Assembly: GCA_964343575.1 (NCBI GenBank)
Contig: CAYFJV010000001.1
Coordinates: forward strand, 91,402-155,401
From: an uncultured Methanosarcinales archaeon
Lineage (GTDB): Archaea; Nanobdellota; Nanobdellia; Woesearchaeales; GW2011-AR9
Length of the DNA stretch: 64,000 bases
Direction: 5' to 3'
The notes beneath the pieces were generated by a model, which saw nothing but the letters and a program-made list of their open reading frames with translations, was not told where the DNA came from and made no database searches. The position numbers and the translations under genes are program-made. Positions 1-17,000 of this stretch are shown in pieces; positions within the stretch are counted from its first letter, which is position 1; each line of letters opens with the position of its first letter.

Positions 1-1509
1 CAAACATCTGATGATATGATTTTGTCTCTTGATAGTCTTGAGGTTGGTGAGTATGATCTTGATGCACAAGGAATTGCGGTAAACTTTGATTATTTTTCTT
101 GGGACCCCTATTTGGATTTGAATGCAGGAGATGAGCAGATTGATGCAACTTCTTTCTACATTGATAGTCCCTTGCCACTTTTTGGAGTCGATATTAGTTT
201 TAACAAATATCTGAACACTTATGATATTAGTTACCCTGTTTTGGTTACTCTTCAGGATGAAAATGCCTTTGATGGAAGAGGCTATAGTTTTAGTTTTGCT
301 CTTGAAACAAACATTATTAACAATGAGCCAGTTCGTAGTTCAAGTGTAACTCCTGCTGTGATTATTACCGAAGGGCAGTCTTTACTTTGTAACCCTACTC
401 AGCGTGAAACTGAAATGATCTCTTCACTTATTGTTGATGCCTACACTCACGAACCGCTTGAATTGGTACAATTTGGCTTTAGTATTCCAAATGATGATCG
501 TTGTTTAATGGGAGCAACTGAAGAAGATGGAGGATTTTCTGCCTCCTATCCTGCTGCTTATGGTGGGATGCTGGATCTACGTTTGGACGGGTATTTAACT
601 GAATACTTTTCCTTGGATACTTATCCTTTCAAAGAAGAATCAGCAGTTATTGGTTATGCGGTGGCGGGTGTTGATGCTCCGGTCTTTGAACTTTATCCTG
701 TGAAAGAACTTGCCGTTTCTGTGCAGAAAAAGAATGTGGGAAAGTGTATTCAGACAGTTGATGTGGATCATTGTGTTGCTTCTACAAGCGCAATAGGTGG
801 TTTCAATGATTGTGCAGACGATCCTTTGAATAGAGTTTGTTTCTTTAATAGCGCAGGAGGTTTATTCTTGCCAGAAGAGCCGGACATTGTAGCTGAAGCA
901 AATGGAAGTAAAAGTTATCTTAATGAATATTATTTTACCACTGCATCTCACACTCTTGCTGAAAATGAGGAAGTGTTTGTTATTATGGAAAGAGTTACAG
1001 ATGTTATTGGAGAAGTTCCAGGAACTAGTTCTGATGAGTTTTCTGCAGTGTTTAGTGTTACTGGAGATGCGCCTAGCACCGTGGAATTGGTTCCTGGTGT
1101 CTATAAAGTTACCACCACAGCACAAATATATCTTAATGATGGCGAGCCTTATGTGATTCCAAGCGATCATCGTTGTTTGAATAGTAGGGATGCAGATTGT
1201 TTTGAAATTGAAGGAGCAGAAGTTGAAAGCCTTCTTGGTTCAACCATGCAATGGCATGAAGAAAGTACTTATGTTACCATCACTGAAGAAGATCTTTACA
1301 GTGCAAATGAGTTTGTGTTTTATACTTTGATGCAAGATTGGCAGGGGATTCCTGAAGTTGCAGACTCTATTGACTTTGGAGGAAGCCCTTTGGAAGTTAA
1401 TGGAAGGATGGTAGAAGATTTTACCGTTATTGACGAAGTAACCTTGCTTGCAAATAGACCTGATGTGCGTAGCGCTCTGGAGCCAAGCTGGATAAAAATT
1501 GATAGTTAG
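1..1509 (+). CDS. acidic secreted/surface protein, C-terminal part (gene starts upstream of the window)
   Basis: Frame 1 is open from base 1 with no stop before the ATG at 16, so the gene probably begins upstream. The 497+ aa are very D/E/S/T-rich with scattered Cys and no catalytic motif. The next surface-protein gene follows after 34 nt and is preceded by a GAGGAG SD-like motif. Confidence 0.6.
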   Translation, partial: QTSDDMILSLDSLEVGEYDLDAQGIAVNFDYFSWDPYLDLNAGDEQIDATSFYIDSPLPLFGVDISFNKYLNTYDISYPVLVTLQDENAFDGRGYSFSFALETNIINNEPVRSSSVTPAVIITEGQSLLCNPTQRETEMISSLIVDAYTHEPLELVQFGFSIPNDDRCLMGATEEDGGFSASYPAAYGGMLDLRLDGYLTEYFSLDTYPFKEESAVIGYAVAGVDAPVFELYPVKELAVSVQKKNVGKCIQTVDVDHCVASTSAIGGFNDCADDPLNRVCFFNSAGGLFLPEEPDIVAEANGSKSYLNEYYFTTASHTLAENEEVFVIMERVTDVIGEVPGTSSDEFSAVFSVTGDAPSTVELVPGVYKVTTTAQIYLNDGEPYVIPSDHRCLNSRDADCFEIEGAEVESLLGSTMQWHEESTYVTITEEDLYSANEFVFYTLMQDWQGIPEVADSIDFGGSPLEVNGRMVEDFTVIDEVTLLANRPDVRSALEPSWIKIDS

Positions 1510-1543
1510 AACAGATAGTTAGAGAGTTGAGGAGAGATGAAAG

Positions 1544-4500
1544 ATGAAAAAGAGTAATGAGAAAAAGATGTGGGCTCTCGCTGGTCTTTGGGTAATGTGT
1601 TTAGTCTTGACTCTTCCTTTCTATTCTGCTCATGCTCTTGCTACCACCGTCACCATTAGTCAAAATCATGGACTTGATGCTGTTCCAGATTACATTGATG
1701 CAGGCGGTGATACTTGGACTGTAGAGGCGACTGTAAGTAATTATGATGGTGAAGGGAGCCTCTCTGCGAGCCAGGTTCTTTTAGATGTGAGTGGAAGCGA
1801 GCTTCCTTTTGATTCTTGTTCTGGGGATACCTTGAGCACACGCTGTACTTTTGAAAGTGATTTGAGTGATGGGATTCTTGAAGGAGAATATCCTTTTACT
1901 GTTTCTGTTTATGATCCTGCTTTGGTGAGTGTTGATGCCCAGGTTGGAGGAGTTGTATATGCAGATGGTTCTGTGCCAAGTGTTTCTTTGACTTATCTTG
2001 AGCAAATTGGAAGTGAAGTTCGCCTAGACTTTACAGCATCTGAGCTTCCGCTTGATGCCTGTTCTGGTTTTGAAAGTTTGCGTATCATTGATGCTGATAC
2101 TGATGAGATTTTGGAAACGATCACTTTTGATGAGCCAGGAGATTGTGAGTACTTTTATGAGATTGACAGTCCTGGGATGGGGGTTTTACAGGTAGAACTT
2201 GAAGGAGAAGGACTTCGTCGTTTAGAAGTTGAAGCAACCGATTTTTTAGGACATAGTGACATTAGCAGTTCTCGATCTTTTGAAAGTGATTTTGTTGCTC
2301 CAAGTATTGTTTTTGGGAGTATGGAATTAGTTGAGTTTGGAGATTATATAGGGGATTTTAGTGCGCCAAGTGATGTTGTGGTTAATGTTACTGAGTGTGA
2401 AGAACTCGTTGAAGTTGCTGCAACTTCAGAGCAGATTGATTTTGCAAGTCAGCCAGGAAACTGTGTGTTGGAAGATAGTTTGTCTTGTACTTGGACTTGT
2501 GAGTGGAATTCTCTGACTGTCTCCCCTGATGGAAGTAGTGTAAGTGCAGAGTTTGTTGCAATTGATGGGAAAGAAAATGTTGGCACTGCGATTTTGACTC
2601 AGGGATTCTCAGTTGATAGTGCTGCCCCTCAAGTTACTTCTTTTGGGACAGAGAATACTTTTCAAGGAGCGAGTTATGTTGCAGCAGGAGAAGAAAACTT
2701 AATTGTTCTAGAGTTGACTGATACTGGGGCTGGAATTGCTTTAGATGGCAGCGGTGTTGCTGCTAACCTTCTTGCAGTGGGAGGGGGTGATTGGCAAGTT
2801 CCAGATTCTTGTGTTGAAGGCGATGCAGGAAAGTTTACTTGTGAATGGTTGGTCTCAACTCGTTCAAGTTCTTCTACGACTTCAGATACTATTAGCTTGC
2901 GCCAACTTGATGATGTGGTTGGCAATATGGGGGACCTTGAGTCTGCTGAAGTTTTGATTGATGGTATTGCTCCAATTGTTCGTTCCATAGACTTCTCTGC
3001 CTTTTCAGTACTTGGTGAGAAAGAGTTTTTCCAAAGTAATGATGACGTGCTTGTTACACTTGAAGTTGAAGAAGCAGCTGGTTTAGAAATTTTTGTTGAT
3101 GCAAGAGAATTGGTTATGGATGCTGAGACTAAATATCGTTATGGGGAGTATGTTGATACTGAGTATATTGCTGATGAGCGTGATGGCTTTGCTCACTTTA
3201 GTGAGGCAGATTGTTCTAGAGAAGCGGGTGATGGTAACTGGCTTTGTGAGTTGAGAGTGGATTCTATCAAAAGTGGTTATGATCCTGCAGCGGAGTTTAG
3301 TGTGGAAGTCTTTGATACTGCGGGGAATTTGGCAAGTTGCGCCTCAAGCAGTTTGGAGAGTGATGCTACAACTGTTGCTGGGCAGAACTGTGAGTATAGT
3401 ATGGAAATTTTTGCTGTTGATGAAGAAACTCAACCCGATTTTTGGGAAGTAAGTAGTTTGAGTGATGGAGATTCTTTTGTAAACTTGGATATCTCTCAGT
3501 TAACTTCTCCTCGGGTAAATTATGATATCCGTTTAAGTAGTGATATTGCTGCAGAGGCAGCTTTGATTGAAGTAGGAGAATGTGTATCAAATGAAACTGG
3601 CGCACCAGTGGTTGGGAGAAGTATTCTCTTTGGTGGTGCGAATGCTGGAGCTAACCCCTCTTTGAATATGATCCTTGAGTATGATCCTTTCGATCCGGCA
3701 AGTGTTTTTGATGTAGGGACTTTGGAAGGTGGAGAGGAGTTCTCTGGTGAGGTCTTTGAGTATACCTGTCAAATGGATGTTTACTCCATTGTTGGTGATA
3801 CTGCAATGAGTTTTGCAGAGAAACAAGAAGTAGTGCTTCCAGTGCTTTTTGCTTATTCTGAGCTTGGCGCTCTTGATGAGAACATTGATGATTTAATTTA
3901 TCAAGAAATTTCAAAGGGCTCTTTTAGAACCTTTAAAGTAATTAATGATATCGCAAAAGTACTTCGCTGGGGAGAATTGTTGCTTGTTGCAATTAATGTC
4001 TTTAACTTTTTGTTCCAGACCATCGCCGGAATAAATGCTGCAGTTGAGCCTTTGCAGAACCTGCCAACTACGAAGCCGGCAGCTACCGGAGTTTGTTTTG
4101 GAGGAGAGGGGGCAAAAAGTGGAGCTAGCACAGTATTGCCTCAAATAACTGGATTTTTACAAGTATTTTATTGCCACCCTGGAGATACAGAGTTTGGAAG
4201 TGGAAGTATTGGTGGGGTAATGAATGGTTGGCAGCAGTGGCAGAAAACTGTGCTTGAACTTTGGTCGACGCTTAAAGGAGAGTGGGTCTATGATCTGGCC
4301 TTTGGAAATAAGGGGCCTACGGGAGAGAAAGCAGACCCAGGTTTCTTAGACGATCCTTCTTTTGGTAGCGATGAGCAAAGTAAACAATTTTGGTATAACC
4401 AGCTAAGTTCTCGTGGAACTGCAGCTAGTTTGTATGATAACATCTATGTTGGAGCAATCGGTCTTTGTATTCCTTCGGTAATGTATAACATACAAAAATT

Positions 4501-5008
4501 ATATCAGGCCCATTGTACCAAACTTGCTTGTTTAAAGAATGATGTGCCGGCTGGTCAGGCGACTGTGCAGTCTTGTTTTGAGGTACAAGAATATCTTGTT
4601 TGTAAGTATGTCTTGGGAGAAGTTGTAGCTCAAATCATGCCGCTTACTCAGCTTGATCGTTTGTTAGGAGATTTACTGAAAAGCATTATTTTTGATCCTG
4701 TTGGAACTATCATGTCTATCATTTCGATAACTTGTTCAACTATCTGTGCTACTTCTAACACTGGAGTAAATGTTTGTACTGCCATTACTTGGCTTTTGGA
4801 TGCAGTAAGTATGGCGGGTTCAATCGCAAATGTTATTAAGGGGATTCCAACTATCCAATACGATATTTGTAAGGAAGCAGGAGTTGAAACTGTATTGAAA
4901 AATTATGAACAGTATGAAGCAGAGCAGGTTGCAGCTGGTGAAAGTTCAAGTGTGACTACGCAAGATATTGCTGCAGAAGGCAGTGGCGTTGAGGGGGCGA
5001 GTGCATGA
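1544..5008 (+). CDS. giant secreted protein: signal peptide, acidic Ig-like repeat region, hydrophobic Cys/Gly-rich C-terminal domain
   Basis: 1154 aa with N-terminal signal peptide KKMWALAGLWVMCLVLTLPFYSAHALA. About 780 acidic aa carry recurring Cys-pair modules and x-D-x-x-G-N strands (FVAIDGKENVG, LDDVVGNMG, VFDTAGNLA). The last ~360 aa are non-acidic and contain several hydrophobic helices and many Cys. Confidence 0.75.
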   Translation: MKKSNEKKMWALAGLWVMCLVLTLPFYSAHALATTVTISQNHGLDAVPDYIDAGGDTWTVEATVSNYDGEGSLSASQVLLDVSGSELPFDSCSGDTLSTRCTFESDLSDGILEGEYPFTVSVYDPALVSVDAQVGGVVYADGSVPSVSLTYLEQIGSEVRLDFTASELPLDACSGFESLRIIDADTDEILETITFDEPGDCEYFYEIDSPGMGVLQVELEGEGLRRLEVEATDFLGHSDISSSRSFESDFVAPSIVFGSMELVEFGDYIGDFSAPSDVVVNVTECEELVEVAATSEQIDFASQPGNCVLEDSLSCTWTCEWNSLTVSPDGSSVSAEFVAIDGKENVGTAILTQGFSVDSAAPQVTSFGTENTFQGASYVAAGEENLIVLELTDTGAGIALDGSGVAANLLAVGGGDWQVPDSCVEGDAGKFTCEWLVSTRSSSSTTSDTISLRQLDDVVGNMGDLESAEVLIDGIAPIVRSIDFSAFSVLGEKEFFQSNDDVLVTLEVEEAAGLEIFVDARELVMDAETKYRYGEYVDTEYIADERDGFAHFSEADCSREAGDGNWLCELRVDSIKSGYDPAAEFSVEVFDTAGNLASCASSSLESDATTVAGQNCEYSMEIFAVDEETQPDFWEVSSLSDGDSFVNLDISQLTSPRVNYDIRLSSDIAAEAALIEVGECVSNETGAPVVGRSILFGGANAGANPSLNMILEYDPFDPASVFDVGTLEGGEEFSGEVFEYTCQMDVYSIVGDTAMSFAEKQEVVLPVLFAYSELGALDENIDDLIYQEISKGSFRTFKVINDIAKVLRWGELLLVAINVFNFLFQTIAGINAAVEPLQNLPTTKPAATGVCFGGEGAKSGASTVLPQITGFLQVFYCHPGDTEFGSGSIGGVMNGWQQWQKTVLELWSTLKGEWVYDLAFGNKGPTGEKADPGFLDDPSFGSDEQSKQFWYNQLSSRGTAASLYDNIYVGAIGLCIPSVMYNIQKLYQAHCTKLACLKNDVPAGQATVQSCFEVQEYLVCKYVLGEVVAQIMPLTQLDRLLGDLLKSIIFDPVGTIMSIISITCSTICATSNTGVNVCTAITWLLDAVSMAGSIANVIKGIPTIQYDICKEAGVETVLKNYEQYEAEQVAAGESSSVTTQDIAAEGSGVEGASA

Positions 5009-6966
5009 GATCAAAAACCTTCTTTTCACTTTTCTTTTGTATGTTGCTAGTCTTAGTTAGTGTTTCTTTTGTTTTTGCCGATTTGGAAGTGATTAGTGAT
5101 CCTGATGTTGTTGTTGGTGATGGTTATTTGTCTGGTTTTGTTTCCATTAGTGGAGAAGCTGCAGATGGTTCAACACAGACGATGTTCATCCCAACAGATG
5201 TATACAATGATTTGGAAGAGGATGGTTTCTTTGCTAATGCTGATCTTTTGTATGATACTGATGCTGGCGCTCTGAGTTATGGTGATCAGACTTCCTTTTT
5301 TATTGATGATCTTACTCCTGGCCATGAGTCAATAAGGGTTGATTACTGGACAAGATCAGGGCCTGATGATTGGGAACAACACACTATCATTGATAACGAT
5401 GAAGGTGTTGATTTGTTCTACGATGAGGGAACTGGCGTTCTTAGTGTAGTCTCTGAGGGAGAAGTTGTAGCAAGCGGGGATATCTCTGGAGATGCTGATG
5501 CAACTTTAAGCTCCCTTGCAACGGGGACTGATAGCGTTTTGTTTGCTGGAGCTGAAGGAGAAGGAGATACTCGAGTTGATTTTAGTGGAGACGGTATTGT
5601 TATTGAACAAGGAACTTTTAGCGGAGGAAAGCTAGAAGAGGGTACAAAAACAACTGAAACTACGGAGGATCTTCTGATTGGTTCTCGAACTGTGACTACC
5701 ACCATTACTGTTGAAGGTGGAGAAGAGGTTAGAGATTCAGGAGAAGTGTGGGATGCTGATGGAGAACTGGAATACACATGGGCAACAGAGCAGGACGGCG
5801 ATCGAGTGTATATGAGTGCTGCGGGACAAGTAGTTGGCTACTCAAGTCATGATGTTGGTGATACTGATTATGGACTTGTCTTTATTTCTCACGATGGAAA
5901 AACACAGGGGAATGGCTTGACTGATGAAGGTTGGGAGAGGTTGGATGAAGGAAAACCAATTCGTTCTGAAGATATAAACTTGAATAGAGAAGATTGTGTG
6001 AGTGATACTTGTATTGCTGTTCAAGAGCAACAACAGTCAGAAATTTATGCTGGTGTAGAGCATGGTCTTGGGTACCTGGGATCAGGACAGTTTTTTTCAA
6101 ACCTACTTTTTGGGGACCTTTATATTGAACAAGGTGTTGCTTCTTGGGATCGTTTCTGGGCAGGTTCTGTTGTTGGAGAAGAGTATTGGGAATCTTTAGT
6201 TTGCAGTTGGCAATTTCCTGACGTGCAAGATCAAGGTGTTGCTTTTATTGAAACTCCGGCAGGAACAATTCAATTCGTTGGGCATATCGAAGCAGAAGTT
6301 TCTTCTGAAGGGCCTATGCTTTGTTCTTACAATGAAGAAGAGTTAGCTTACACTTCTTGTCCGGAAGGACTTCGTTGCGTTGATGAAGTTTGTGTAGATA
6401 GTGAAGAGGAAGCGGTTAATGCAGAGATGTATAAAATTACTTGGGGCGTGCAAGCTCCGATGGATGAAGCTTTTACTCCTTATGTAAGTGAAGATGGAGT
6501 TGCTATTACTTACAATATTTTAATTGGTGGTCCTGATTTGCAGAGTAAGAATTTGGCAGAAGCAGGTGTTTGTGGTGATAACGATCCAAGTTGTGTTCGT
6601 TTGTACAGTTACCAAGGAGATAGCGGTTTTCCTTTACGTTTAGAAAATGGTGAAGCAGATGGAGCAACTGTTGTTGAGTGGTCTACAAACACAGATTATG
6701 CAACAGTATGTATTGCTTGGGGAAAACCACCTGTTACTATTAATTATTGGGTTGCAGGAAATCAGCTTCCTAAGGGTAAATATGAAGGAATGTCTGGTGG
6801 AACTATTGTAGATCCTGTTTGTAACGAAATTAAGTTAAGTACGCGAGGAACTGTTGCTTCTGCTGCAGAAGCAGGAAAAAGCAAGTCGAATCAAGAAGCT
6901 GGAAGTAGAGATGCTGGATCTTCCTCAGTTGCAACTGAGCAAGGAGTTACTTTGAATGACTTTTAG
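5005..6966 (+). CDS. acidic secreted protein, translationally coupled to the upstream gene
   Basis: 653 aa. The start ATG overlaps the upstream stop (ATGA at 5005-5008). Signal peptide MRSKTFFSLFFCMLLVLVSVSFVFA. Strongly acidic N-terminal half and a Cys-containing C-terminal half. No known motif recognised. Confidence 0.7.
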   Translation: MRSKTFFSLFFCMLLVLVSVSFVFADLEVISDPDVVVGDGYLSGFVSISGEAADGSTQTMFIPTDVYNDLEEDGFFANADLLYDTDAGALSYGDQTSFFIDDLTPGHESIRVDYWTRSGPDDWEQHTIIDNDEGVDLFYDEGTGVLSVVSEGEVVASGDISGDADATLSSLATGTDSVLFAGAEGEGDTRVDFSGDGIVIEQGTFSGGKLEEGTKTTETTEDLLIGSRTVTTTITVEGGEEVRDSGEVWDADGELEYTWATEQDGDRVYMSAAGQVVGYSSHDVGDTDYGLVFISHDGKTQGNGLTDEGWERLDEGKPIRSEDINLNREDCVSDTCIAVQEQQQSEIYAGVEHGLGYLGSGQFFSNLLFGDLYIEQGVASWDRFWAGSVVGEEYWESLVCSWQFPDVQDQGVAFIETPAGTIQFVGHIEAEVSSEGPMLCSYNEEELAYTSCPEGLRCVDEVCVDSEEEAVNAEMYKITWGVQAPMDEAFTPYVSEDGVAITYNILIGGPDLQSKNLAEAGVCGDNDPSCVRLYSYQGDSGFPLRLENGEADGATVVEWSTNTDYATVCIAWGKPPVTINYWVAGNQLPKGKYEGMSGGTIVDPVCNEIKLSTRGTVASAAEAGKSKSNQEAGSRDAGSSSVATEQGVTLNDF

Positions 6967-6999
6967 TGTTTTTAGAATTTAGATAAAGATGTTTGAGCT

Positions 7000-7854
7000 T
7001 TGGTGAGAAAAGTGGTTGAGAAAGGTTTTTGGAAGAAGGAATGGGCTGTCTATAAGCAGTCTTTTTCTGATAGGAAACTTTTGCTGAACTCTTTTTTCTA
7101 TGATCTTGCAACAGTCGGTGCTTTTGGTATCTTGCTTCTTTTGTTTAACTTACTTGTTCAAAACCAAATGCAAAAAGTAATGCAAGGAAGATCTGCTTAT
7201 GAAGTGCAACAGCTTTTCTTAACTGCAGCTCCTGAAGAGCTCACTGTTTTGCTTGGCGATATGCGTTTGCTACTTTTTATCTTAAGCGTAGGTTTGCCTT
7301 TGATGGTTTTGCTCGGGTTTTTTACTCTAGCTTTTTCTCGATCTCACTTATGGGCTTATCTTTTGGGAAAAAAATGGCAGAAGAAAGGACTTGGTAAGTG
7401 GTTTTTATTCATGGTTTTAGGTTCTGTGTTAGTTCTTATCTATTTTGTTTTAGGACTTCTTGTAAAACTCTTCTTGGTCAGTGCTCTTGCTTCTGTGGTT
7501 GGAAATCCGCAGGCAACAGGAGTCATTCTTTTTGATAGCTTTTTGATGCAAATTATTGTGATCAAATCGATGATGTTCTTTTTTGCTTTGAATTATTCTT
7601 TTGCAAAAAGTTCACTTGTTTGGAAATCTGTTGGAGATAGTTTTTCTTTGCTCTTTAAAAAATGGGGTCAGCTCTTTTTTCCTGTCCTTGCTTTGGTGCT
7701 TACTTTGACCGCCTTACATAGTTTACTTTCCTACTTATTTTTAGAAATCTTTTTTGCACAGCAAGTTGTTTTCTTTATTGTGCAGCCAGTGGTTTTGCTT
7801 TTTGTGATTGCTTTTGCAAGGGTGTACTTCTTGCAGGTCTTTAGGCAGAAATGA
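7000..7854 (+). CDS. polytopic membrane protein of unknown function
   Basis: 284 aa with about 6-7 long hydrophobic segments (LATVGAFGILLLLFNLLV, LLLFILSVGLPLMVLLGFFTLAF, FLFMVLGSVLVLIYFVLGLLV and others). It lies 33 nt after the previous gene on the same strand. The track start is TTG, so the exact start is uncertain. Confidence 0.6.
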   Translation: MVRKVVEKGFWKKEWAVYKQSFSDRKLLLNSFFYDLATVGAFGILLLLFNLLVQNQMQKVMQGRSAYEVQQLFLTAAPEELTVLLGDMRLLLFILSVGLPLMVLLGFFTLAFSRSHLWAYLLGKKWQKKGLGKWFLFMVLGSVLVLIYFVLGLLVKLFLVSALASVVGNPQATGVILFDSFLMQIIVIKSMMFFFALNYSFAKSSLVWKSVGDSFSLLFKKWGQLFFPVLALVLTLTALHSLLSYLFLEIFFAQQVVFFIVQPVVLLFVIAFARVYFLQVFRQK

Positions 7855-7940
7855 TAAGGAAAAGCCTTAAAAAGGGCCCTCATATCTAGGCCTAAAGTTC
7901 TTCTTTTGAGGTTCTTTTATACTAATTGGAGTTGAAATTC

Positions 7941-11117: not shown

Positions 11118-11855
11118 GTGTCGAAAATGGTAAGCTTAGAAGATATTGCTAATTCCGTTAAGAGGGCACCTGCTTTTGCTAGGACCCTTGCTTTTGTTCC
11201 AGCCGTTTATTTGCTTGGTTGTGATGGTAGTTCTGGCCCTGTTGTCGGGACTGGAACTGATTCTGGAGTTGTTGATCAAGAACCAGCTGATGATACTGAT
11301 GCTTGGCCTGATGCTCCAGATAAGCCTTATTTAACGCAGACAGAGTGTACAGATTCTTTTGATTTTGGTCAAGGAGTGACTGCGGTCTCTCAAGATACCC
11401 CTAGTGTTGCGTTTAGTAGTTATGGTTTGGCAGACCCTTTTGACCATGAGTACCTCCCAAATGCGGGCTCTTATGATGCAGCTGAAGGGATTCTGACTAT
11501 TCATGAAGATGTTAGTCCAACTGATTTTCGTGAGGGAAGGTGGAAGGTTTTTCCTGGCGAAGTGTTGACTCCAGAAAACTTTGAGTATTTTTATAGTACT
11601 TGTGGTGGTGGACTGAGTGCGGGTGAAGCCTTCAATGATGTGTTGGATGCTTATGGGGGAGTAGTTATGGTAGAGGAAGGACGTGACTATCCTCATGTGA
11701 TGATTCCCTCCTCTCAACCATGGGGTGGAGAAGAGAATTGTCTTTTATCTGAGATTAGTGTTTACAGAGAAGATGGCCCTTGTCCCCTCTCTGTCTTCGA
11801 GACGAGTAGAGATAACCCTGATTTTGACCCTGATTATTGGTCTTCTCGATTTTAG
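11118..11855 (+). CDS. acidic secreted lipoprotein-like protein (lipobox LLGC)
   Basis: 245 aa. N-terminal hydrophobic segment ends in LLGCDGSSGP (lipobox-like) and the mature part is acidic. GGGGTG SD-like motif upstream. The start is either GTG 11118 or ATG 11127. Confidence 0.6.
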   Translation: MSKMVSLEDIANSVKRAPAFARTLAFVPAVYLLGCDGSSGPVVGTGTDSGVVDQEPADDTDAWPDAPDKPYLTQTECTDSFDFGQGVTAVSQDTPSVAFSSYGLADPFDHEYLPNAGSYDAAEGILTIHEDVSPTDFREGRWKVFPGEVLTPENFEYFYSTCGGGLSAGEAFNDVLDAYGGVVMVEEGRDYPHVMIPSSQPWGGEENCLLSEISVYREDGPCPLSVFETSRDNPDFDPDYWSSRF

Positions 11856-11909: not shown

Positions 11910-14900
11910 ATGAAAAAGGTGGTGGATGGACGTTTTACAGTCGGTACTAGAAAGAAATTTCTCTACGTTACTTTCTTCTTGCTCACTTTGTTTTCTTTAA
12001 TTCTTGCTGGTTGTACAGATCCTGACCCAAGTACCATCAATACCTGTAATAGCGCAAGTAGTACAAGAATTATCGGAACAGATTGGCTCTGTATAAAAGA
12101 TGTTCTGGCAGATCAAGGATCTGGAAAAGTTTGTTTAGTTAAACCAAATGAGAATGAGCTTTCTACTTCTGATTTTACTAAACTGAAGGATGATACAATT
12201 AATCGTTTGATTTCTGATCTTGATATAAGTGGTTCTGGTCCAGAAGGAGATTTCAGAGAAGGAATCGATGATGGACTCACCTACCGCAGTGGTGATTGTT
12301 ATGATTTAGATAGCAACCATGTCTTCGAATCGTTTGAAACACCAGCCTCACAATTTGATTTTCAACAAGCTATCGAAGACACCTTAGATCAACCTTATGT
12401 CCCACTCATGTTCTACTGTGATATGTCACACGAATACAGTCAAAAAGGACTTATCGTGGTACAAGAAGCAAATGATGAAGAAGAAGAACTTGATATTTAT
12501 GTTTGTCACGGTGGTAAATGGAAAGATGCAGATGATCTAATGGATGATGATCTTGATAAAGATGGTGATGGCGCTTCTTTATGGTGGGATTGTAATGATG
12601 CAGATCCGACCAGACATGCAGATATGAGTAAGTATGGCATTGGAGAACCTGCAGCAGAGGTTTGTGGAGATCGTGTTGATAACCAATGTTTGCAGCCTTA
12701 TGAGTATAATGATATCACTTTTGATTGGGATGGTCAATGGAGAGATAGTTGGGAAGATGCTTGTGATAACAACGCATTTGCTTGTGAAAACAATTGCCTT
12801 TGGGAAGGAAACAAGTGTGACTTTTTGGGTGCTTACAACCAGGATTTTGACTATTATGAAGGCGAAGGAACTGCAGGGTATTGTTGTGGAGCAGGGGCAG
12901 TTGATGATTTAGGAAGAACAGTTGGAGACGATGAAATTTGTCTTTCAACAAATGAAGATCTTGTAAGTGTGAACCTTGATGGCTTGGTTACCAGAGATAG
13001 GGTTCTTGATGCAGAACTTGATGATCCTGAAGCAAATCCTGATAACTGTCCAAGTGGAGCAGATTGGTGTTGGGTAAACGCTGGAGAGACAGGTGGTTCA
13101 ATTGAAGATGTGCAGTTCCAAGTGCTTACTGTCAAAGAACTTGGAGAAGATCCTTACGATGTTGTCTCAAACAGTGAAGAGTGGTTCTTTTGCGATGCTA
13201 ACGCCCTTGCTGCTGAAGAAGAAGTTTTGGGTGCCCCAGAGGCTTTGGCACTTCGTGATACTGCTAATCGTTTTTACTGTTCGCAACAAGGAACAAACTA
13301 TGTGTGGGCAGAGTGTATTGAACCAGGACTTGCTTTTAACGATGAGGTCTTGCCTGGAGTTGAGAGTGTTAAATATCGACAGGCAGGAGATGGATTGTAT
13401 GCTCTTGCTGCAGAGGCAGTTGGTGGAGAAGTAGTACTTACTGGCCCAGCTTATGATGCTTATTATGATAAAAGTTACAGCTTTTATGAAGATACTTTTG
13501 ATTTTACCGGATTTGATTATTTAGAATTCTTTGTTACTTTTGATCAGATAGATGCACTTCCTGTTAGTGTTTTGCTTGAAGTCTTTAGTGCTGCAGAAGA
13601 TGCGCAAGAAGAAGTACAGTATTATGATGGCAATGTACTTGGATATGCAGTGAATGCTCCTTTGCTTGAAGTTGGAAGAACAGTGCACATCAAAGTTCCA
13701 ATTGAGGGAGATTGGAAGGATGTTACTCGGGTAAACATTTTTCCAGGACAATCTACTAATGAGATTACTGTGACTAATGTGTATCTCACCAGTGATGATG
13801 CACCACTTCTTTGCTCGGGTGATCAAGACGAATTAGAAAGTTCTTGGATTACCGATATGGATTATTCTAGTGCAAGTAGTGATATTCGAGGAGAAGAAAT
13901 TTGTACAACTCATTTTGGCCCGGATGCTTGGCTTGGTCGATCTGACTTTACTTACGCTGAAGTAGAAAGCTCTAGTGCAAGTTGTTGTGGGAATCAAGCT
14001 GGAGAATATTATGCTGGGAGTACAGCAGATGGTGGTTTGAGCGCTTGTTGGAATGGAGATGTGGTGCAAGAAAATGAAACTTTCATGAACGTTGCTTATG
14101 AAGTGAGCTACTATCTTGAAGATAAAGAATTTGATGCAAGTTCTGAGAAGCTCTTTACTATGGGTGCTGTTGATGATTTACATTTGTTGGTTCCTGGAAG
14201 AAAATTGAGTCTTTCGGAGACTCACGATATGCTTGTAGGTTTGGATGGAATAGAAGATGGAGAAGTTCCTGAGGGACTTGTCGCCTTTGCAAGTGCAGAT
14301 GATCCCGACTTTAGTGTGGTGTATGATGCTATTGAAGAAGGAGATCTTGTTGAAGGAGATATTATTATTTTCAATGAAGCGCTAGTTGGTGGTGGTTGGT
14401 CAGAATTTATCGAGACTTATGTCTCTCTTCCTTGGCCAATTGCCTATGACGCTTACGAAATCACTGCTTTAGAAGAGCCCCTTAATGGATTTTACACTGT
14501 AAGTTATGAAGAGTCTCCCCAAATTGTGGAAAGTTTTGATTTGGACCTTCGTGAACTTTATGATATTGGGGTTGATCTAGTACAGTTTGATTTACCTTAC
14601 AGCAGCGAGGGACTTACTCCTTGGATTGATGTCTACTTCTTTGTTCCTGAGATCCAAAAGCGTTACGGAGATCTCTTTGTAGCAAGTCCTGGTGCTGAAT
14701 TACCTACCATTCTTACTTTGCAGATAGTTGCTGAGACTAATGATCTTACAATCACGGAGAATCCCGATCGTCAGGAAGTTGATGGTTTTGTTTATCCTTG
14801 TACTCAAGAAGAGTGTCTTTTTGGTCTTCCTGGCTCACCAACTTATGAAATAACTAACAGTCATCCTGCTCTCTATGATCTTTATTTTGTTCCTGCTTCA

Positions 14901-17000
14901 GATCCAGATAATCCTGTTCTGATCACTGCAGCTGCACAACCTTTCACCGAGGAAGGAAATTTGCTTGTCAAAAGTTTATCTCAACAAGTAACTCTCTTGG
15001 GGGAGAGTTTCTATGGTTGTCAAGCGGCAGATTTCATTGCTACAACACAGTTTGGTGGTTTAGATGTCTTGACAGAGAATGCTCTTTCTTGTTCAGTGTA
15101 TGGAAATTCTTTCTGTGCTTACCAAGATAATGGACTTATTAATAGTTGGAGTCAAGAAGACATTAGTGCTTATGGTTATGAAGTAGATGGTTTGAGTGAT
15201 GAATTTGTCTCTAGTGATGATTTGGACCTGCACCAATGTGATCCTGCCTATGATACTTGTGATGCAGAAGATAGAAACCAATCAAGTCATGCTGTACCTG
15301 GTCGTAATTTTATTAGTAACGCCGATTTTAGTGCGCTTGATGGAGAAGATGTCTTGCACTGGGCTCACTTTGATCTCACCGGCGTGGTTTCAATCGATCG
15401 TGAAGAAGACTTTGTTATCGATGGAATCTATTCTCTTGCGGCAAGAGAAACACTTGTTTCTGAGCGTATTGTGTTGTTTGCTGAAGAAGAATACCAATTA
15501 AGTTATACTGGGGTTTGCGAAGTAAGTGCTACAGTTTATGATAAAAATGGTGCCGTATTGTTAGCTAAAATTGGTCCTGGACCGATTCCTTTTACCTCTA
15601 CCGAGATGCTTGATGCTTCTTATATGATCATTGAGTTTGATGGTGGTCAGTTGGGTTGTGAGCTCAGCGAACCTTATTTGCAATTAGTTGATCCTGTCTT
15701 TGGAGCTAACTTGTATAATTATGACTCAGAATTTCCTTTAGGGGCTGGGGCTGCTTGCTGTCCAAGTGATATGTGTTGGAATGGACAGTACTGTGTGCAA
15801 GATATGGGTTATACTACCTTTTTGAGCGAGAATGTGCATAATGATACTTATCGTTGTGTTGCAGGGGATTGGGAGTATGTTGATCCAAAATGGGATTGGA
15901 ACGGAGAGGACTTTGGTTACTGTGATGAGCAAACTCAGTGTTTTGTTACCAGTTCTCTCACTACTGGTGCAAGTGGTGATTACTTAGCAAGTGATTTTTA
16001 TGATGGGAATTATCCAACCTGTATTAATGATGGAGAGTACATCTTAGATCATTACCGTCGTGAAGGAAATTGGAGCTCACGAACCCAGTTCTTAGCTGAA
16101 GGTTTGCTTAATGTGGGAGATTCTATTGAGGACTTTGCTTTGTACTGTACTGATTACAGAACAAACCTTAACGACCATGATCTCTGGGCTAGTTATCTTT
16201 CTGGTGTTGAAACCGCTCCTGATTTTGCTGGAGTTGGCTTGGGTGATGCTTTACTTGATGTAGAACCAGAAGAGAGTAATGTTTGTTTCTCAGCGATTTA
16301 TAATCATGATGCTGGGGAGCGCTTGGTCCCGGTAGAAGATAATACTTGTATTAACAATGTTTGTGTACTTAAGTTCGGAGATAGTGAAGAATCTAAGGTT
16401 GCACTTGCGGCAAGTATGAACCTTGAAATAAGTGATCCGAATTCCTTTTTGATTCCACTTGGTTTAGGTGATTATAGTGATTTAGCAGTTGCTTGTCCTG
16501 ATGCAGTTGGCTCAGAAACTTTTGTAGAGTGTGATCCTACTTTTTGGTATGCTGAAGAGATTAACTCTTTGATTTATGCTAAAGATGGAGTTACTTTGAC
16601 AACTGGTGTTTTTGATCTGCTTGAAGATCTTTGGCAGTGGTTCATTGGACTTTTTGGTGCTGGCGAGTTTGATGCCATTGAGTTTTTAGAGGATACTAAT
16701 GATTTTAACAAATTGTATTTACTTGACGTCAATGGGGATTCTGTGAAAGTAGTTCAAGAACTTGGAGAAGGAGGCGATCCTGTGATCTTAGCTGAGTTTG
16801 AAGGACTTGATTCTCCGGTTTGTGATTATGTCTTGAATGCTGAGTATGATAAAGTGTATCGTGATCAGTGGCCAGCGTCCCCTGAGCAGCTTGTTGACTG
16901 TAGTTATAATGAAACAGAAGATGTTTATTATGTAAGTACTCAGCACGAGACAGGATATTGGTGGGAGCAATTAGTTGGTGAGCTGAGGATTTTTGGGTGA
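11910..17000 (+). CDS. giant (1696 aa) acidic Cys-rich surface protein with lipobox-type N-terminus
   Basis: A single uninterrupted 5.1-kb ORF. The N-terminal anchor FFLLTLFSLILAGCTDPDP is lipobox-like. DKDGDGASLWWDCNDADPTRHAD...CGDRVDNQC resembles the Asp/Cys putative metal-binding repeat. There are dozens of Cys and very high D/E content. Confidence 0.8.
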   Translation: MKKVVDGRFTVGTRKKFLYVTFFLLTLFSLILAGCTDPDPSTINTCNSASSTRIIGTDWLCIKDVLADQGSGKVCLVKPNENELSTSDFTKLKDDTINRLISDLDISGSGPEGDFREGIDDGLTYRSGDCYDLDSNHVFESFETPASQFDFQQAIEDTLDQPYVPLMFYCDMSHEYSQKGLIVVQEANDEEEELDIYVCHGGKWKDADDLMDDDLDKDGDGASLWWDCNDADPTRHADMSKYGIGEPAAEVCGDRVDNQCLQPYEYNDITFDWDGQWRDSWEDACDNNAFACENNCLWEGNKCDFLGAYNQDFDYYEGEGTAGYCCGAGAVDDLGRTVGDDEICLSTNEDLVSVNLDGLVTRDRVLDAELDDPEANPDNCPSGADWCWVNAGETGGSIEDVQFQVLTVKELGEDPYDVVSNSEEWFFCDANALAAEEEVLGAPEALALRDTANRFYCSQQGTNYVWAECIEPGLAFNDEVLPGVESVKYRQAGDGLYALAAEAVGGEVVLTGPAYDAYYDKSYSFYEDTFDFTGFDYLEFFVTFDQIDALPVSVLLEVFSAAEDAQEEVQYYDGNVLGYAVNAPLLEVGRTVHIKVPIEGDWKDVTRVNIFPGQSTNEITVTNVYLTSDDAPLLCSGDQDELESSWITDMDYSSASSDIRGEEICTTHFGPDAWLGRSDFTYAEVESSSASCCGNQAGEYYAGSTADGGLSACWNGDVVQENETFMNVAYEVSYYLEDKEFDASSEKLFTMGAVDDLHLLVPGRKLSLSETHDMLVGLDGIEDGEVPEGLVAFASADDPDFSVVYDAIEEGDLVEGDIIIFNEALVGGGWSEFIETYVSLPWPIAYDAYEITALEEPLNGFYTVSYEESPQIVESFDLDLRELYDIGVDLVQFDLPYSSEGLTPWIDVYFFVPEIQKRYGDLFVASPGAELPTILTLQIVAETNDLTITENPDRQEVDGFVYPCTQEECLFGLPGSPTYEITNSHPALYDLYFVPASDPDNPVLITAAAQPFTEEGNLLVKSLSQQVTLLGESFYGCQAADFIATTQFGGLDVLTENALSCSVYGNSFCAYQDNGLINSWSQEDISAYGYEVDGLSDEFVSSDDLDLHQCDPAYDTCDAEDRNQSSHAVPGRNFISNADFSALDGEDVLHWAHFDLTGVVSIDREEDFVIDGIYSLAARETLVSERIVLFAEEEYQLSYTGVCEVSATVYDKNGAVLLAKIGPGPIPFTSTEMLDASYMIIEFDGGQLGCELSEPYLQLVDPVFGANLYNYDSEFPLGAGAACCPSDMCWNGQYCVQDMGYTTFLSENVHNDTYRCVAGDWEYVDPKWDWNGEDFGYCDEQTQCFVTSSLTTGASGDYLASDFYDGNYPTCINDGEYILDHYRREGNWSSRTQFLAEGLLNVGDSIEDFALYCTDYRTNLNDHDLWASYLSGVETAPDFAGVGLGDALLDVEPEESNVCFSAIYNHDAGERLVPVEDNTCINNVCVLKFGDSEESKVALAASMNLEISDPNSFLIPLGLGDYSDLAVACPDAVGSETFVECDPTFWYAEEINSLIYAKDGVTLTTGVFDLLEDLWQWFIGLFGAGEFDAIEFLEDTNDFNKLYLLDVNGDSVKVVQELGEGGDPVILAEFEGLDSPVCDYVLNAEYDKVYRDQWPASPEQLVDCSYNETEDVYYVSTQHETGYWWEQLVGELRIFG

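What the first reader, a model, noticed from the sequence alone, without database searches (positions are those of the whole stretch)
1..7854. Co-transcribed block of giant acidic Cys-bearing secreted proteins ending in a polytopic membrane protein
Four same-strand genes (1-1509 partial, 1544-5008, 5005-6966, 7000-7854) are spaced by 34 nt, by a 4-nt ATGA overlap, and by 33 nt, so they look like one transcription unit. The 1154-aa product has a signal peptide. It then has about 780 strongly acidic residues built from repeated ~100-aa modules with a Cys pair and an x-D-x-x-G-N strand (FVAIDGKENVG, LDDVVGNMG, VFDTAGNLA). These modules read like Ig-like adhesin repeats. At about residue 790 the composition switches abruptly to a non-acidic, Gly/aromatic/Cys-rich ~360-aa region with several hydrophobic helices (LLLVAINVFNFLFQTIAGI, IYVGAIGLCIPSVMY, GTIMSIISITCSTICA, ITWLLDAVSMAGSIANVI). 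I recognise no family for this C-terminal module, for the 653-aa partner, or for the membrane protein. In a putative episymbiotic archaeon, such a unit is a candidate cell-surface or host-contact apparatus in which an adhesin stalk is joined to a membrane-active or membrane-embedded module.
Basis: partly seen in the sequence, partly recalled or inferred. Interest (0 to 1): 0.7.

Follow-up and report, generated by a model that had tools for sequence, protein, structure and literature searches.

The report
Conserved DPANN surface-protein operon
Four neighbouring genes of a tiny Woesearchaeota-type (DPANN) archaeon form a conserved operon for an uncharacterised cell-surface complex, in which a pilin-like membrane anchor is paired with large secreted proteins; it is not a membrane-piercing device, and it may show how these archaea display giant surface proteins.

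Summary
Four same-strand genes (g1 1-1509, partial; g2 1544-5008; g3 5005-6966; g4 7000-7854) are spaced by 34 nt, an ATGA overlap and 33 nt. The order g1-g2-g3-g4 is kept in all 38 non-redundant related loci that hold the genes, from Woesearchaeota/Nanoarchaeota genomes. The g2 family alone has about 1,560 clusters at 50% identity, all unnamed. None of the four proteins matches Pfam, NCBIfam or PDB.

Residues 34-770 of g2 fold confidently as a chain of Ig-like β-sandwiches. Its C-terminal "hydrophobic helices" are not conserved as membrane-spanning segments. That module has 10 invariant cysteines and is most likely an extracellular, disulfide-bonded helical head.

The new point lies just off the window. 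Full-length g1 (815 aa) starts with an archaeal class III (prepilin-type) signal, RAQV/KGQV followed by a hydrophobic helix. Smaller g1-type paralogues elsewhere each directly precede another large Sec-secreted protein (757 to 7,647 aa).

My best reading is an anchor-plus-cargo surface-display complex. In it, g3 carries a hypervariable exposed part and g4 is a 6-TM membrane partner. An S-layer role or a pilus-tip role cannot be excluded.

The parts
1..1509 (+). g1, the C-terminal 502 aa of an 815-aa protein (full length = P0016). The part outside the window carries a class III (prepilin-type) signal, MDRRA|QVTIFIIVGILLLAIFAVVLY, and an α/β module. The part inside the window is β-sandwich-rich ectodomain with 4 Cys pairs.
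   Evidence: Searches give the sequence. Q6, F10 and I12 are invariant in 18 sequences. AF2 pLDDT 80.6; only weak CnaB/transthyretin-like matches; the class III rule is met by 29/40 g1-family N-termini against 0/396 others.
1528..1533 (+). GAGGAG Shine-Dalgarno-like site about 9 nt upstream of the g2 start codon
   Evidence: sequence read directly.
1544..1642 (+). g2 Sec-type signal peptide (residues 1-33), with the conserved L-P-[FI]-Y-S-A-x-A-[ML]-A end and an AxA cleavage motif
   Evidence: the hydrophobic core is conserved in 13/15 members; P25, Y27, S28 and A33 are invariant.
1643..3877 (+). g2 stalk (residues 34-778): 6-7 acidic Ig-like β-sandwich domains. D3-D5 carry the Cys pair, the W and the D-x-x-G-N/H motifs.
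   Evidence: pLDDT about 85. Foldseek finds multi-Ig proteins at TM about 0.1. D3/D4/D5 are related. Big_3_3 matches weakly in 7/15 members.
3878..4933 (+). g2 C-terminal module (residues 779-1130): non-acidic, all-helical, with 10 invariant Cys (C851, C877, C975, C991, C996, C1011, C1020, C1064, C1068, C1078). Read as an extracellular disulfide-bonded helical head, not TM.
   Evidence: invariant Cys; helical but low pLDDT (35-70); hydropathy is not conserved; no PDB or Pfam relatives; no thioester motif and no PGF.
4934..5008 (+). g2 acidic, disordered C-terminal tail with S-V-T-T-[ED]-D in close relatives; no anchor signal
5005..5994 (+). g3 signal peptide plus a hypervariable, very acidic, Gly-rich, Cys-free N-terminal region (residues 1-330)
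   Evidence: composition; 36% identity over 139 aa in the closest relative and nothing alignable in others; g3 length is 604-1442 aa in relatives.
5995..6966 (+). g3 conserved Cys-rich C-terminal module (residues 331-653), ending in a conserved terminal peptide (GVTLNDF here; [EQ]V[ST]xN[ST]DW in relatives)
   Evidence: C400, C440, C452, C458, C463, C569 and C606 are conserved in at least 90% of sequences; the module is unrelated to the g2 C-terminal module.
7000..7854 (+). g4, a basic 284-aa membrane protein with 6 hydrophobic segments and no Cys. It has a K-V-W-x-S-[IV]-G loop motif (W208 invariant). N- and C-termini and the basic loops are probably cytoplasmic.
   Evidence: alignment of 22 orthologues; no family or PDB match; 0-1 Cys in orthologues.
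7855..7925 (+). End of the unit: a T-rich tract (TTCTTCTTTTGAGGTTCTTTT) and a TATA-like TTTATAC ahead of the FKBP gene
   Evidence: sequence read directly. The function of these elements is inferred.

Best explanation
g1-g4 is a lineage-specific, chromosomally fixed operon of Woesearchaeota-type DPANN archaea. It encodes a multi-subunit complex displayed on the cell surface, built on an anchor-plus-cargo principle.

g1 is exported with a class III (prepilin-type) signal. After cleavage at [KR][GA]|Q, or without cleavage, its N-terminal hydrophobic helix holds it in the membrane, and it presents an α/β module and β-sandwich domains.

g2 is translated from the same mRNA and exported through Sec. 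It has no anchor of its own. It is an acidic stalk of 6-7 Ig-like domains ending in a disulfide-bonded helical head, and it is retained by binding g1.

g3 is also Sec-exported and anchorless. It joins through its conserved Cys-rich C-terminal module and exposes a hypervariable N-terminal region as the outermost part, which binds ligands or partner cells or evades viruses.

g4 is a 6-TM protein with no catalytic signature. It acts as the membrane partner, for docking or assembly.

Shown: the genes, their conservation and order, the signal types, the Ig-like fold, the invariant Cys pattern, the lack of anchors, the hypervariability, and the recurrence of the cassette. Inferred: prepilin-peptidase processing, the physical g1-g2-g3-g4 contacts, and the adhesion or contact role.
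For: Conservation and order. All four genes have orthologues, in the same order and on the same strand, in 38 non-redundant loci of Woesearchaeota/Nanoarchaeota genomes. They usually lie downstream of MetRS. The median g1-g2 gap is 18 nt. The g2 family has 1,564 clusters at 50% identity with E <= 1e-3, and the top 150 all have the same ~1000-1200-aa architecture.

g1 signal. The N-terminus is RAQV/KGQV/RGQV/KGQI plus a 22-aa uncharged H-domain. The rule is met by 29/40 distinct g1-family N-termini, against 0/37 g2, 0/30 g3, 0/22 g4 and 0/307 background ORFs. Q+1, F+5 and I+7 are invariant. The tetrapeptides are the same as the experimentally processed M. maripaludis Epd pilins RAQI/KGQV/KGQL/KGQI (PMC4371748).

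Recurrent cassette. g1-type paralogues of 340-444 aa are each followed, at -31 to +1 nt, by a large Sec-signal protein: 340 aa then 7,647 aa, 381 aa then 3,401 aa, 443 aa then 757 aa, and 444 aa then more than 447 aa. These cargo families are unrelated to g2.

g2 and g3 features. g2 has a confident β-sandwich chain. g2 and g3 have Sec signals and no TM, PGF-CTERM or lipobox anchor. Cys are invariant in the g2 head and the g3 C-module. The g3 N-terminal region is hypervariable while everything else keeps 33-50% identity.

Operon signals are seen.

Precedent. Archaeal T4P loci include large class-III or Sec-signal Cys-rich 'adhesin / minor pilin' proteins (PMC4858521). The Sulfolobus bindosome shows that large non-pilin proteins can use class III signals (PMC4371748).
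Against: No physical interaction is shown, and no multimer prediction was possible. Pfam's class III signal and archaeal pilin models do not hit g1. Position +5 is Phe, not Glu. The AF2 model shows a low-confidence break after the first helix, and Foldseek found no type IV pilin match. No prepilin peptidase, PilB/ArlI ATPase or PilC was seen in the window ORFs I scanned or among the Pfam-annotated genes of loci L001-L010 and L047-L048; the rest of the 665-kb contig could not be read. Five of 34 loci have more than 150 nt between g1 and g2, and about half have inserted genes between g2 and g3. Strict co-transcription is therefore not universal. The g2 helical head was modelled with low confidence (pLDDT 35-70).
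Confidence: 0.5

Rival explanations
1. S-layer operon. g2 is the lattice-forming canopy protein (SlaA-like: ~1000 aa, multiple Ig-like folds, no C-terminal TM). g1 is the membrane-anchored stalk (the SlaB role, but anchored at the N-terminus). g3 and g4 are accessory envelope components.
For: The cluster is single-copy and its position is fixed next to housekeeping genes across relatives at only 30% identity. The family is very large. The g2 architecture equals that of the proposed DPANN S-layer candidates MJ1_0160 and NEQ300: ~1000 aa, 5 Ig-like folds, no C-terminal TM (bioRxiv 10.1101/2023.10.27.564410). One Foldseek hit is the S-layer protein SbsB. Synonymous codon usage of g1-g3 leans slightly towards the ribosomal-protein pattern, about 1.2 sd above other genes.
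Against: No sequence or HMM match to any S-layer family. N-X-S/T sequons are depleted, with 3 observed against about 12 expected in g1-g3, whereas archaeal S-layer proteins are typically heavily N-glycosylated (MJ1_0160 has 15 predicted glycosylation sites). A Woesearchaeota metatranscriptome lists separately annotated 'S-layer protein genes' among the top transcripts (PMC11606122). The same g1-type module also partners unrelated giant proteins, which fits a general display system better than a lattice. The codon test has poor resolving power.
Confidence: 0.2
2. Type IV pilus tip complex. g1 is a giant minor pilin built into a type IV filament by PilB/PilC-type machinery encoded elsewhere. g2 and g3 are non-pilin adhesins carried at the tip, as PilY1 is carried by minor pilins. 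g4 is an assembly factor.
For: g1 has a class III-type signal with the EppA-like +1 Gln. The gene for the pilin-like subunit sits next to a large Sec-signal adhesin-like protein, repeatedly. Archaeal T4P loci with large DUF2341/PilY-like adhesins and Cys-rich components are described (PMC4858521). Archaellin flaB is among the top transcripts of Woesearchaeota, so type IV filament machinery is active in the phylum (PMC11606122).
Against: No T4P ATPase, platform protein or peptidase lies next to the cluster in any annotated locus. At 815 aa, g1 is very large for a filament subunit. A ~10-residue low-confidence linker (residues 30-40) separates the hydrophobic helix from the globular part, instead of the continuous α1 helix packed on a sheet. 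Foldseek found no pilin match. No Pfam pilin model hits.
Confidence: 0.15
3. One reading: an adhesin stalk fused to a membrane-active or membrane-embedded C-terminal module that inserts into the cell's own membrane or a host membrane, as a host-contact or penetration device.
For: In this genome the module has two segments with KD >= 1.6 (812-830 and 1044-1062). It is helical and moderately hydrophobic throughout. Water-soluble helical domains with buried hydrophobic hairpins, such as colicin-type pore formers, are a known kind (own knowledge). The protein components of DPANN attachment organelles are unknown (PMC11420986).
Against: Hydrophobicity of the segments is not conserved: 2-3 of 15 members per segment reach the threshold, 6/15 members have none, and relatives carry charged residues within the segments. 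Ten invariant Cys argue for a rigid, disulfide-bonded extracellular fold. No match to any pore-former or fusion family was found. The model is low-confidence in this region, so no structural argument can be made.
Confidence: 0.07
4. g1-g3 are unrelated exoproteins that happen to be syntenic, for example secreted binding proteins or enzymes released into the medium, and they form no complex.
For: g2 and g3 lack any anchor. The four families are unrelated to each other. Insertions between the genes are tolerated in relatives.
Against: The order is invariant over deep divergence, the g1-g2 spacing is tight and g2/g3 start-stop overlaps occur in several lineages. No enzymatic domain is detectable. 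The pairing of a g1-type gene with a large secreted protein recurs.
Confidence: 0.05

Closest known systems
Minor-pilin / PilY1-type tip adhesin modules of type IV pili, and the large DUF2341 'PilY-like' adhesins in archaeal T4P loci (Makarova et al. 2016, PMC4858521)
   Same: A subunit with a prepilin-type (class III) signal is encoded next to a large non-pilin protein that has an ordinary Sec signal and no anchor of its own. The components are Cys-rich and Ig-like-rich. The presumed role is adhesion.
   Different: No DUF2341 or β-propeller is present, and there is no Pfam pilin match. g1 is 815 aa. No PilB, PilC or peptidase genes lie in the neighbourhood. The operon sits in a housekeeping context and also contains g3 and the 6-TM g4.
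Sulfolobus bindosome subunits (sugar-binding proteins with class III signals)
   Same: Large, non-pilin extracellular proteins use a prepilin-type signal, so that the N-terminal hydrophobic helix anchors or assembles them at the cell surface.
   Different: There is no substrate-binding-protein fold, no ABC-transporter genes and no Bas assembly genes nearby. Here the class III protein is paired with secreted cargo proteins.
SlaA/SlaB S-layer operon of Sulfolobales, and the proposed DPANN S-layer candidates (MJ1_0160 of Nanobdella aerobiophila, NEQ300 of Nanoarchaeum equitans)
   Same: A membrane-anchored protein and a ~1000-1400-aa anchorless multi-Ig protein are co-transcribed. The proteins are acidic, lineage-specific and fast-evolving, and lack Pfam hits.
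   Different: No detectable sequence similarity to any known S-layer family was found; MJ1_0160 and NEQ300 themselves were not compared. The anchor is N-terminal and prepilin-like, not a C-terminal TM plus coiled coil. Sequons are depleted. Two additional conserved genes are present. The anchor module recurs with unrelated giant cargo.
α2-macroglobulin / complement C3 / TEP family (top Foldseek matches for g2)
   Same: A string of β-sandwich (MG-like) domains is followed by a helical domain of ~300 aa. Foldseek E-values are about 1e-14.
   Different: TM-scores are about 0.1, so the match is generic multi-Ig. There is no conserved thioester CGEQ motif (CLEQ in 2 of 15 members, with the Gln not conserved). 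There are no A2M Pfam domains and no β-sandwich after the helical domain. The helical part of the model is low-confidence.
Module 98 of Castelle et al. 2021 (PMC8204110): 51 Pacearchaeota/Woesearchaeota-specific protein families, mostly of unknown function; many of the study's DPANN lineage-specific families are predicted membrane-bound or extracellular
   Same: The taxonomic restriction is the same, and so is the kind of protein (unannotated, exported or membrane). The g1-g4 families may be among them.
   Different: I could not verify membership, because the relevant supplementary table is not held. That paper does not describe this operon, the class III signal or the anchor-cargo pairing.

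Membership tests
Archaeal class III (type IV prepilin-like) signal peptide proteins (g1) | A charged residue at -2 and G/A(/S) at -1, located BEFORE the hydrophobic domain and near the N-terminus | tested here: met
   29/40 distinct g1-family N-termini match (KGQV 11, RGQV 8, RGQI 4, KAQV 4, KGQI 2), against 0/396 other ORFs. The window's own g1 reads R-A|Q-V. The criteria come from PMC4371748.
Archaeal class III (type IV prepilin-like) signal peptide proteins (g1) | An uninterrupted, uncharged hydrophobic H-domain of about 20 residues directly after the processing site | tested here: met
   the 22 residues after the site (QVTIFIIVGILLLAIFAVVLYV) have mean KD >= 1.6 and no charged residues. 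AF2 predicts helix 3-38.
Archaeal class III (type IV prepilin-like) signal peptide proteins (g1) | Recognition by curated HMMs for class III signals or archaeal pilin N-termini (Pfam Class_IIIsignal, archaeal Pilin_N) | tested here: not met
   no such Pfam hit at E <= 1 (or <= 0.1) in 18 g1 orthologues and 3 paralogues. Position +5 is an invariant Phe rather than Glu.
Archaeal class III (type IV prepilin-like) signal peptide proteins (g1) | Cleavage by a prepilin peptidase (PibD/FlaK/EppA) | not testable with these tools
   This needs N-terminal proteomics or a peptidase assay. The presence of the peptidase gene elsewhere on the 665-kb contig could not be checked.
Type IV pilus / pilin (g1 as a filament subunit) | Pilin fold: a long N-terminal α-helix whose C-terminal half packs on a β-sheet or Ig-like domain | tested here: inconclusive
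   helix 3-38 is followed by a low-confidence segment at 30-40, then helix 49-75 and an α/β domain; no type IV pilin among the Foldseek PDB matches.
Type IV pilus / pilin (g1 as a filament subunit) | Linked assembly genes (PilB/ArlI-type ATPase, PilC/ArlJ platform, peptidase) | tested here: not met
   None is found among the Pfam-annotated neighbours in L001-L010 and L047-L048 or among the roughly 45 window ORFs scanned. Genome-wide presence was not testable.
Archaeal S-layer proteins | Sequence or HMM similarity to a described S-layer family | tested here: not met
   nothing in Pfam, NCBIfam or PDB sequences. Only a generic structural match to SbsB, among many multi-Ig proteins.
Archaeal S-layer proteins | Anchoring by a C-terminal TM helix or a PGF-CTERM/archaeosortase signal (or a dedicated anchor partner) | tested here: not met
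   g1, g2 and g3 have no C-terminal hydrophobic segment and no PGF motif. A partner anchor (g1 or g4) is possible but only inferred.
Archaeal S-layer proteins | Dense N-glycosylation sequons | tested here: not met
   1, 2 and 0 sequons in g1 (502 aa), g2 and g3, against 3.2, 5.8 and 2.9 expected.
Archaeal S-layer proteins | Very high expression and formation of a 2-D lattice | not testable with these tools
   The codon-usage proxy was inconclusive. Transcriptomes, proteomes or cryo-ET are needed.
α2-macroglobulin / TEP family (g2) | A thioester CGEQ motif in the helical TED domain, A2M Pfam domains and a global fold match | tested here: not met
   C[GLA]EQ is present in 2/15 members only; no A2M domains. 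TM-score about 0.1.
Transmembrane or pore-forming module (g2 C-terminus) | Hydrophobic segments of TM length conserved across the family | tested here: not met
   segments h1, h3 and h4 reach KD >= 1.6 in 3, 2 and 2 of 15 members. Six of 15 members have no such window. Charged residues occur within the segments.
Archaeosortase / exosortase (g4) | A polytopic membrane protein with a conserved catalytic Cys (plus Arg/His), and an NCBIfam/TIGRFAM match | tested here: not met
   no NCBIfam hit. g4 has 0 Cys, and orthologues have 0-1 non-conserved Cys.
Bacterial/archaeal Ig-like (Big/PKD-type) adhesin domains (g2 stalk) | A β-sandwich fold with recurrent HMM similarity | tested here: met
   confident β-sandwich chain. 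Big_3_3 matches 7/15 members (best E 4e-4, all below Pfam's own cut-off). D3-D5 share the C...W...C...DxxGN half.

The most novel reading that the evidence does not exclude
g1-type proteins define a previously unrecognised surface-display system of Woesearchaeota-type DPANN archaea. In this reading, a prepilin-like anchor subunit (class III signal plus a conserved α/β docking module) is translationally coupled to, and tethers, a large or giant anchorless secreted protein. The universally conserved g1-g4 operon is its core member and forms the structure by which these ultra-small cells contact partner cells. Its hypervariable g3 tip determines partner specificity.
Probability: 0.25. Interest if true: 0.7.

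Novelty: new variant of a known kind. Interest (0 to 1): 0.5.

Why it matters
DPANN archaea are thought to live attached to other cells, but none of their S-layer, adhesin or attachment-organelle proteins has been identified experimentally (PMC11420986).

This operon is a large family, with about 1,560 clusters at 50% identity for g2 alone. It has a fixed position, is completely unannotated, and is found across the Woesearchaeota-type genomes sampled here. That makes it a leading candidate for a core envelope or contact structure.

The recurrent pairing of a prepilin-like anchor with an anchorless giant protein gives a concrete hypothesis for how these organisms display proteins of up to 7,600 aa. 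It can be tested by proteomics, AF-Multimer or heterologous expression. It also provides a simple sequence signature, [KR][GA]Q[VI]T[VI]F followed by an LGxQGGYIYP motif, for finding such cassettes.

If it turns out to be simply the S-layer, it would still be among the first S-layer assignments for this group.

Tried and rejected
1. Pfam, NCBIfam and PDB sequence searches, with single sequences and family profiles, found no real hit for g1-g4. The DUF7707 hit in the g2 C-terminus (E 0.011) is chance: only 1 of 15 family members matches.

2. Foldseek of g2 against PDB gave E about 1e-14 to α2-macroglobulin/complement, but with TM about 0.1 and no thioester motif. I rejected this as homology; it is a generic multi-Ig match.

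3. Foldseek of g1 against PDB and the viral library found only CnaB/transthyretin/carboxypeptidase-regulatory-like β-sandwich matches. The N-terminal α/β module matched nothing.

4. TM or pore-former reading of the g2 C-terminus: rejected on family-wide hydropathy.

5. Archaeosortase or PGF-CTERM anchoring: rejected.

6. Homology among g1, g2, g3 and the cargo proteins of paralogous cassettes: none was found, apart from a marginal match between one g1 β-domain and g2 D2 (E 4.6e-4).

7. Codon usage as an expression proxy: r-proteins and other genes separate too weakly in this genome.

8. Looking up the window's own g2 to read the contig upstream: it is not on record. The full-length g1 was recovered instead through.

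9. Supplementary Table 3 of PMC8204110, to see whether the families belong to 'Module 98': the table is not held.

10. Literature search for Woesearchaeota plus prepilin peptidase: no papers.

11. My interim note that 'insertions never occur between g1 and g2' was wrong. Five of 34 loci have gaps over 150 nt, and one has a 1.9-kb gap.

Full report

Yes. The ORF listing gives four + strand ORFs exactly where stated:
- g1, 1-1509, open at the left end
- g2, 1544-5008, 1154 aa
- g3, 5005-6966, 653 aa
- g4, 7000-7854, 284 aa, TTG start

The spacers are 34 nt, an ATGA overlap and 33 nt. A GAGGAG Shine-Dalgarno precedes g2. Only after g4 is there a T-rich tract and a TATA-like element, ahead of the next gene, an FKBP isomerase.

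The drop in acidity at about residue 800 of g2 is real: D+E falls from 0.19 to 0.06. g1-g3 are far more acidic than the 48 other ORFs of the window, with D+E 16-18% and K+R 4% against 13% and 14%. Opposite-strand ORFs are short shadows.

The window is archaeal chromosomal core: GatE, RPA-type SSB, RtcB, ribosomal proteins L15e/S13/S4/S11, RpoD and a fused primase. Relatives are labelled Woesearchaeota, Nanoarchaeota or Nanoarchaeia. The 'episymbiotic DPANN' context is therefore reasonable.

**2. Conservation**

g2 has 14 full-length relatives at 30-49% identity in the word-indexed search. The exhaustive profile search found 1,564 clusters at 50% identity with E <= 1e-3 and 678 with E <= 1e-30. 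The best 150 all share the ~1000-1200-aa architecture. The only names found are 'hypothetical protein'.

Genomic contexts came from metagenomes and from 36 species-representative genomes. I analysed them with HMMs built from the first orthologues.
- g1, g2, g3 and g4 are always in this order on one strand, in 38 non-redundant loci, usually downstream of MetRS.
- The g1-g2 gap has a median of 18 nt and is <= 150 nt in 29 of 34 loci.
- Between g2 and g3, 15 of 29 loci carry inserted DNA, often toxin-antitoxin-like NTP_transf_2 pairs or a DUF1016 gene.
- Between g3 and g4, 7 of 22 loci carry inserted DNA.

The order is therefore strongly conserved, but strict co-transcription of all four genes is not universal.

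**3. What the proteins are**

None of the four matches Pfam, NCBIfam or PDB sequences, either as single sequences or as family profiles.

*g2.* It has a Sec-type signal with an unusually conserved end, LP[FI]YSAxA[ML]A.
- AlphaFold2 with the 15-sequence alignment gives a confident chain of β-sandwich domains for residues 34-770 (pLDDT about 85).
- Foldseek returns multi-Ig proteins (α2-macroglobulin/complement, mastigoneme, cadherins, S-layer SbsB) with good E-values but TM about 0.1. This is a generic resemblance.
- The thioester motif that defines the macroglobulin family is absent.
- Pfam Big_3_3 is hit weakly in 7 of 15 members.
- Profile-profile comparison shows that only D3, D4 and D5 are detectably related, through the C...W...C...DxxGN half. 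'Repeated modules' is therefore right structurally and only partly right by sequence.

*The g2 C-terminal module (779-1130).* It is predicted as all-helical, but at low confidence.
- Its 'hydrophobic helices' are not conserved as such. Each reaches TM-like hydropathy in only 2-3 of 15 members, relatives place 2-4 charged residues in them, and 6 of 15 members have no TM-like window at all.
- Ten cysteines are invariant.
- The tail is acidic and disordered, with no TM or PGF-CTERM signal.
- I therefore read it as an extracellular, disulfide-stapled helical head, not a membrane module.

*g3.* It has a Sec signal. Its N-terminal region is hypervariable in length (the protein is 604-1442 aa in relatives) and in sequence. 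It is barely alignable even with the closest relative, while g1, g2 and the g3 C-module keep 33-50% identity. The ~320-aa C-terminal module is conserved and Cys-rich, and ends in a conserved terminal peptide.

*g4.* It is a basic 6-TM protein with very few conserved residues (W208, the KVWxSIG loop) and no Cys. It is therefore not an archaeosortase.

The four families are unrelated to one another.

**4.

The window starts inside g1. The homology search returned the complete protein of this contig (P0016, 815 aa). It begins MDRRAQVTIFIIVGILLLAIFAVVLY, and orthologues begin M..K[KR]GQVT[VI]FII[IV]GI. This has the structure of an archaeal class III (prepilin-type) signal: a charged residue at -2 and G/A at -1, placed before the hydrophobic domain.

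A FlaFind-type rule is met by 29 of 40 distinct g1-family N-termini. It is met by none of 37 g2, 30 g3, 22 g4 or 307 background ORFs. Q+1, F+5 and I+7 are invariant across sequences that otherwise share 25-55% identity. The tetrapeptides RAQV, KGQV and KGQI are those of the M. maripaludis Epd pilins, whose peptidase EppA requires Gln at +1 (PMC4371748).

Three caveats apply:
- Pfam's class III and archaeal pilin models do not hit.
- Position +5 is Phe, not Glu.
- No pilus machinery is encoded nearby.

The AF2 model of g1 (pLDDT 80.6) shows helix 3-38, a low-confidence segment at residues 30-40 before the next helix, an α/β module with no PDB match, and then CnaB/transthyretin-like β-sandwiches. 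No type IV pilin match was found.

**5. A recurrent cassette**

The N-terminal ~230 aa of g1 (signal plus α/β module, with an LGxQGGYIYP motif) recurs in smaller paralogues, all in Woesearchaeota/Nanoarchaeota.

Each of four paralogue types is followed, at -31 to +1 nt, by a large protein with a Sec-type signal:

| g1-type paralogue | Following protein |
|---|---|
| 340 aa | 7,647 aa |
| 381 aa | 3,401 aa |
| 443 aa | 757 aa |
| 444 aa | more than 447 aa |

In the parts I hold, these cargo proteins are unrelated to g2 and g3. g1-g2 is therefore one instance of a general pairing: a prepilin-like anchor gene followed by a gene for an anchorless secreted giant.

**6. Most likely mechanism**

I propose an anchor-plus-cargo surface complex:
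- g1 is held in the membrane by its class III helix.
- g2 and g3 are exported by Sec and retained through g1 and through each other.
- The hypervariable N-terminus of g3 is the exposed part.
- g4 is the membrane partner.

I put this at about 0.5. The signal types, folds, lack of anchors, invariant cysteines, hypervariability and gene pairing are shown. Processing, contacts and the adhesion role are inferred.

**7. Rivals**

*S-layer operon (0.2).*
- For: the fixed single-copy position, the huge family, and the SlaA-like architecture that also characterises the proposed DPANN S-layer candidates MJ1_0160 and NEQ300.
- Against: sequon depletion, separately annotated S-layer genes among the top Woesearchaeota transcripts, and reuse of the anchor module with unrelated giants.

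*True pilus-tip complex, analogous to minor pilins plus PilY1 (0.15).*
- For: the signal type and the gene pairing.
- Against: g1's size, the broken helix and the absence of linked machinery.

*Unrelated secreted proteins that are merely syntenic (0.05).*

**8. Comparison with the known, and novelty**

The building blocks are known kinds: the Ig-like stalk, the Sec signal and the class III signal. Three things are undescribed as far as the searched literature shows: the four families, the Cys-rich helical head, and the anchor-cargo cassette as a conserved Woesearchaeal system. Castelle et al. 2021 only note lineage-specific exported families of unknown function.

I class it as a new variant of a known kind, with interest 0.5. 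It is not very surprising that a DPANN archaeon has orphan surface proteins. However, this is a very large, conserved family, and it yields a concrete, testable hypothesis about how these cells display giant proteins and contact partners.

Noticed in passing
window 11118-11855 and 11910-17000 (+): This is a second pair of strongly acidic, Cys-rich exported proteins: 245 aa, and 1696 aa with 52 Cys and net charge -261. Both have a lipobox-like L-[LA]-G-C after the N-terminal hydrophobic stretch, so they are possibly archaeal lipoproteins. They are unrelated to g1-g4 by BLAST and HMM. The only Pfam signal is a faint MopE metal-binding motif hit.
   Followed up: partly
window 20011-20128 (-): Rfam finds a 118-nt tRNA (49.5 bits) that ARAGORN did not report. 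Its length suggests an intron-containing archaeal tRNA.
   Followed up: no
window 56898-58466 (+): One 522-aa ORF carries both the DNA_primase_S and DNA_primase_lrg domains. This would be a fused PriS-PriL primase, as known from Nanoarchaeum-type genomes (own knowledge).
   Followed up: no
window 29331-30254 (+): A 307-aa archaeal protein has a clear bacterial-type Sigma70 region 4 domain (E 5e-12).
   Followed up: no
L005 13573-15751; L009 10180-11150 and 15567-16689: In relatives, small selfish-looking modules are inserted between the g2 and g3 orthologues without disturbing the gene order. They include an NTP_transf_2/Polbeta gene with a small partner (toxin-antitoxin-like) and a DUF1016/YhcG nuclease-like gene.
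   Followed up: partly
g3 orthologues in L004, L009, L020, L023-L025, L027, L031-L033, L043-L045 (the first ~60 and the last ~15 residues): Many g3 orthologues, but not the window's, carry a C-x-[LF]-[GW]-C-K-[VI]-W-x-F-[LF]-[FW]-G motif right after the signal peptide. Nearly all end with [EQ]-V-[ST]-x-N-[ST]-D-W (the window's g3 ends GVTLNDF). This could be a docking or sorting peptide.
   Followed up: no
L047/L048 10001-21023 (+) and 4141-9879 (-): A 340-aa g1-type paralogue overlaps by one base the start of a 7,647-aa ORF. A 1,912-aa NosD/β-helix protein is encoded divergently next to it. The contig is a 1.47-Mb Woesearchaeota contig that also carries the g1 orthologue about 9 genes away.
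   Followed up: partly
window 1544-1642 (g2 residues 20-33) and orthologues: The end of the g2 signal peptide is unusually conserved for a Sec signal: L20, P25, Y27, S28 and A33 are invariant in 15 sequences at 30-50% overall identity. This hints at a dedicated recognition step.
   Followed up: no
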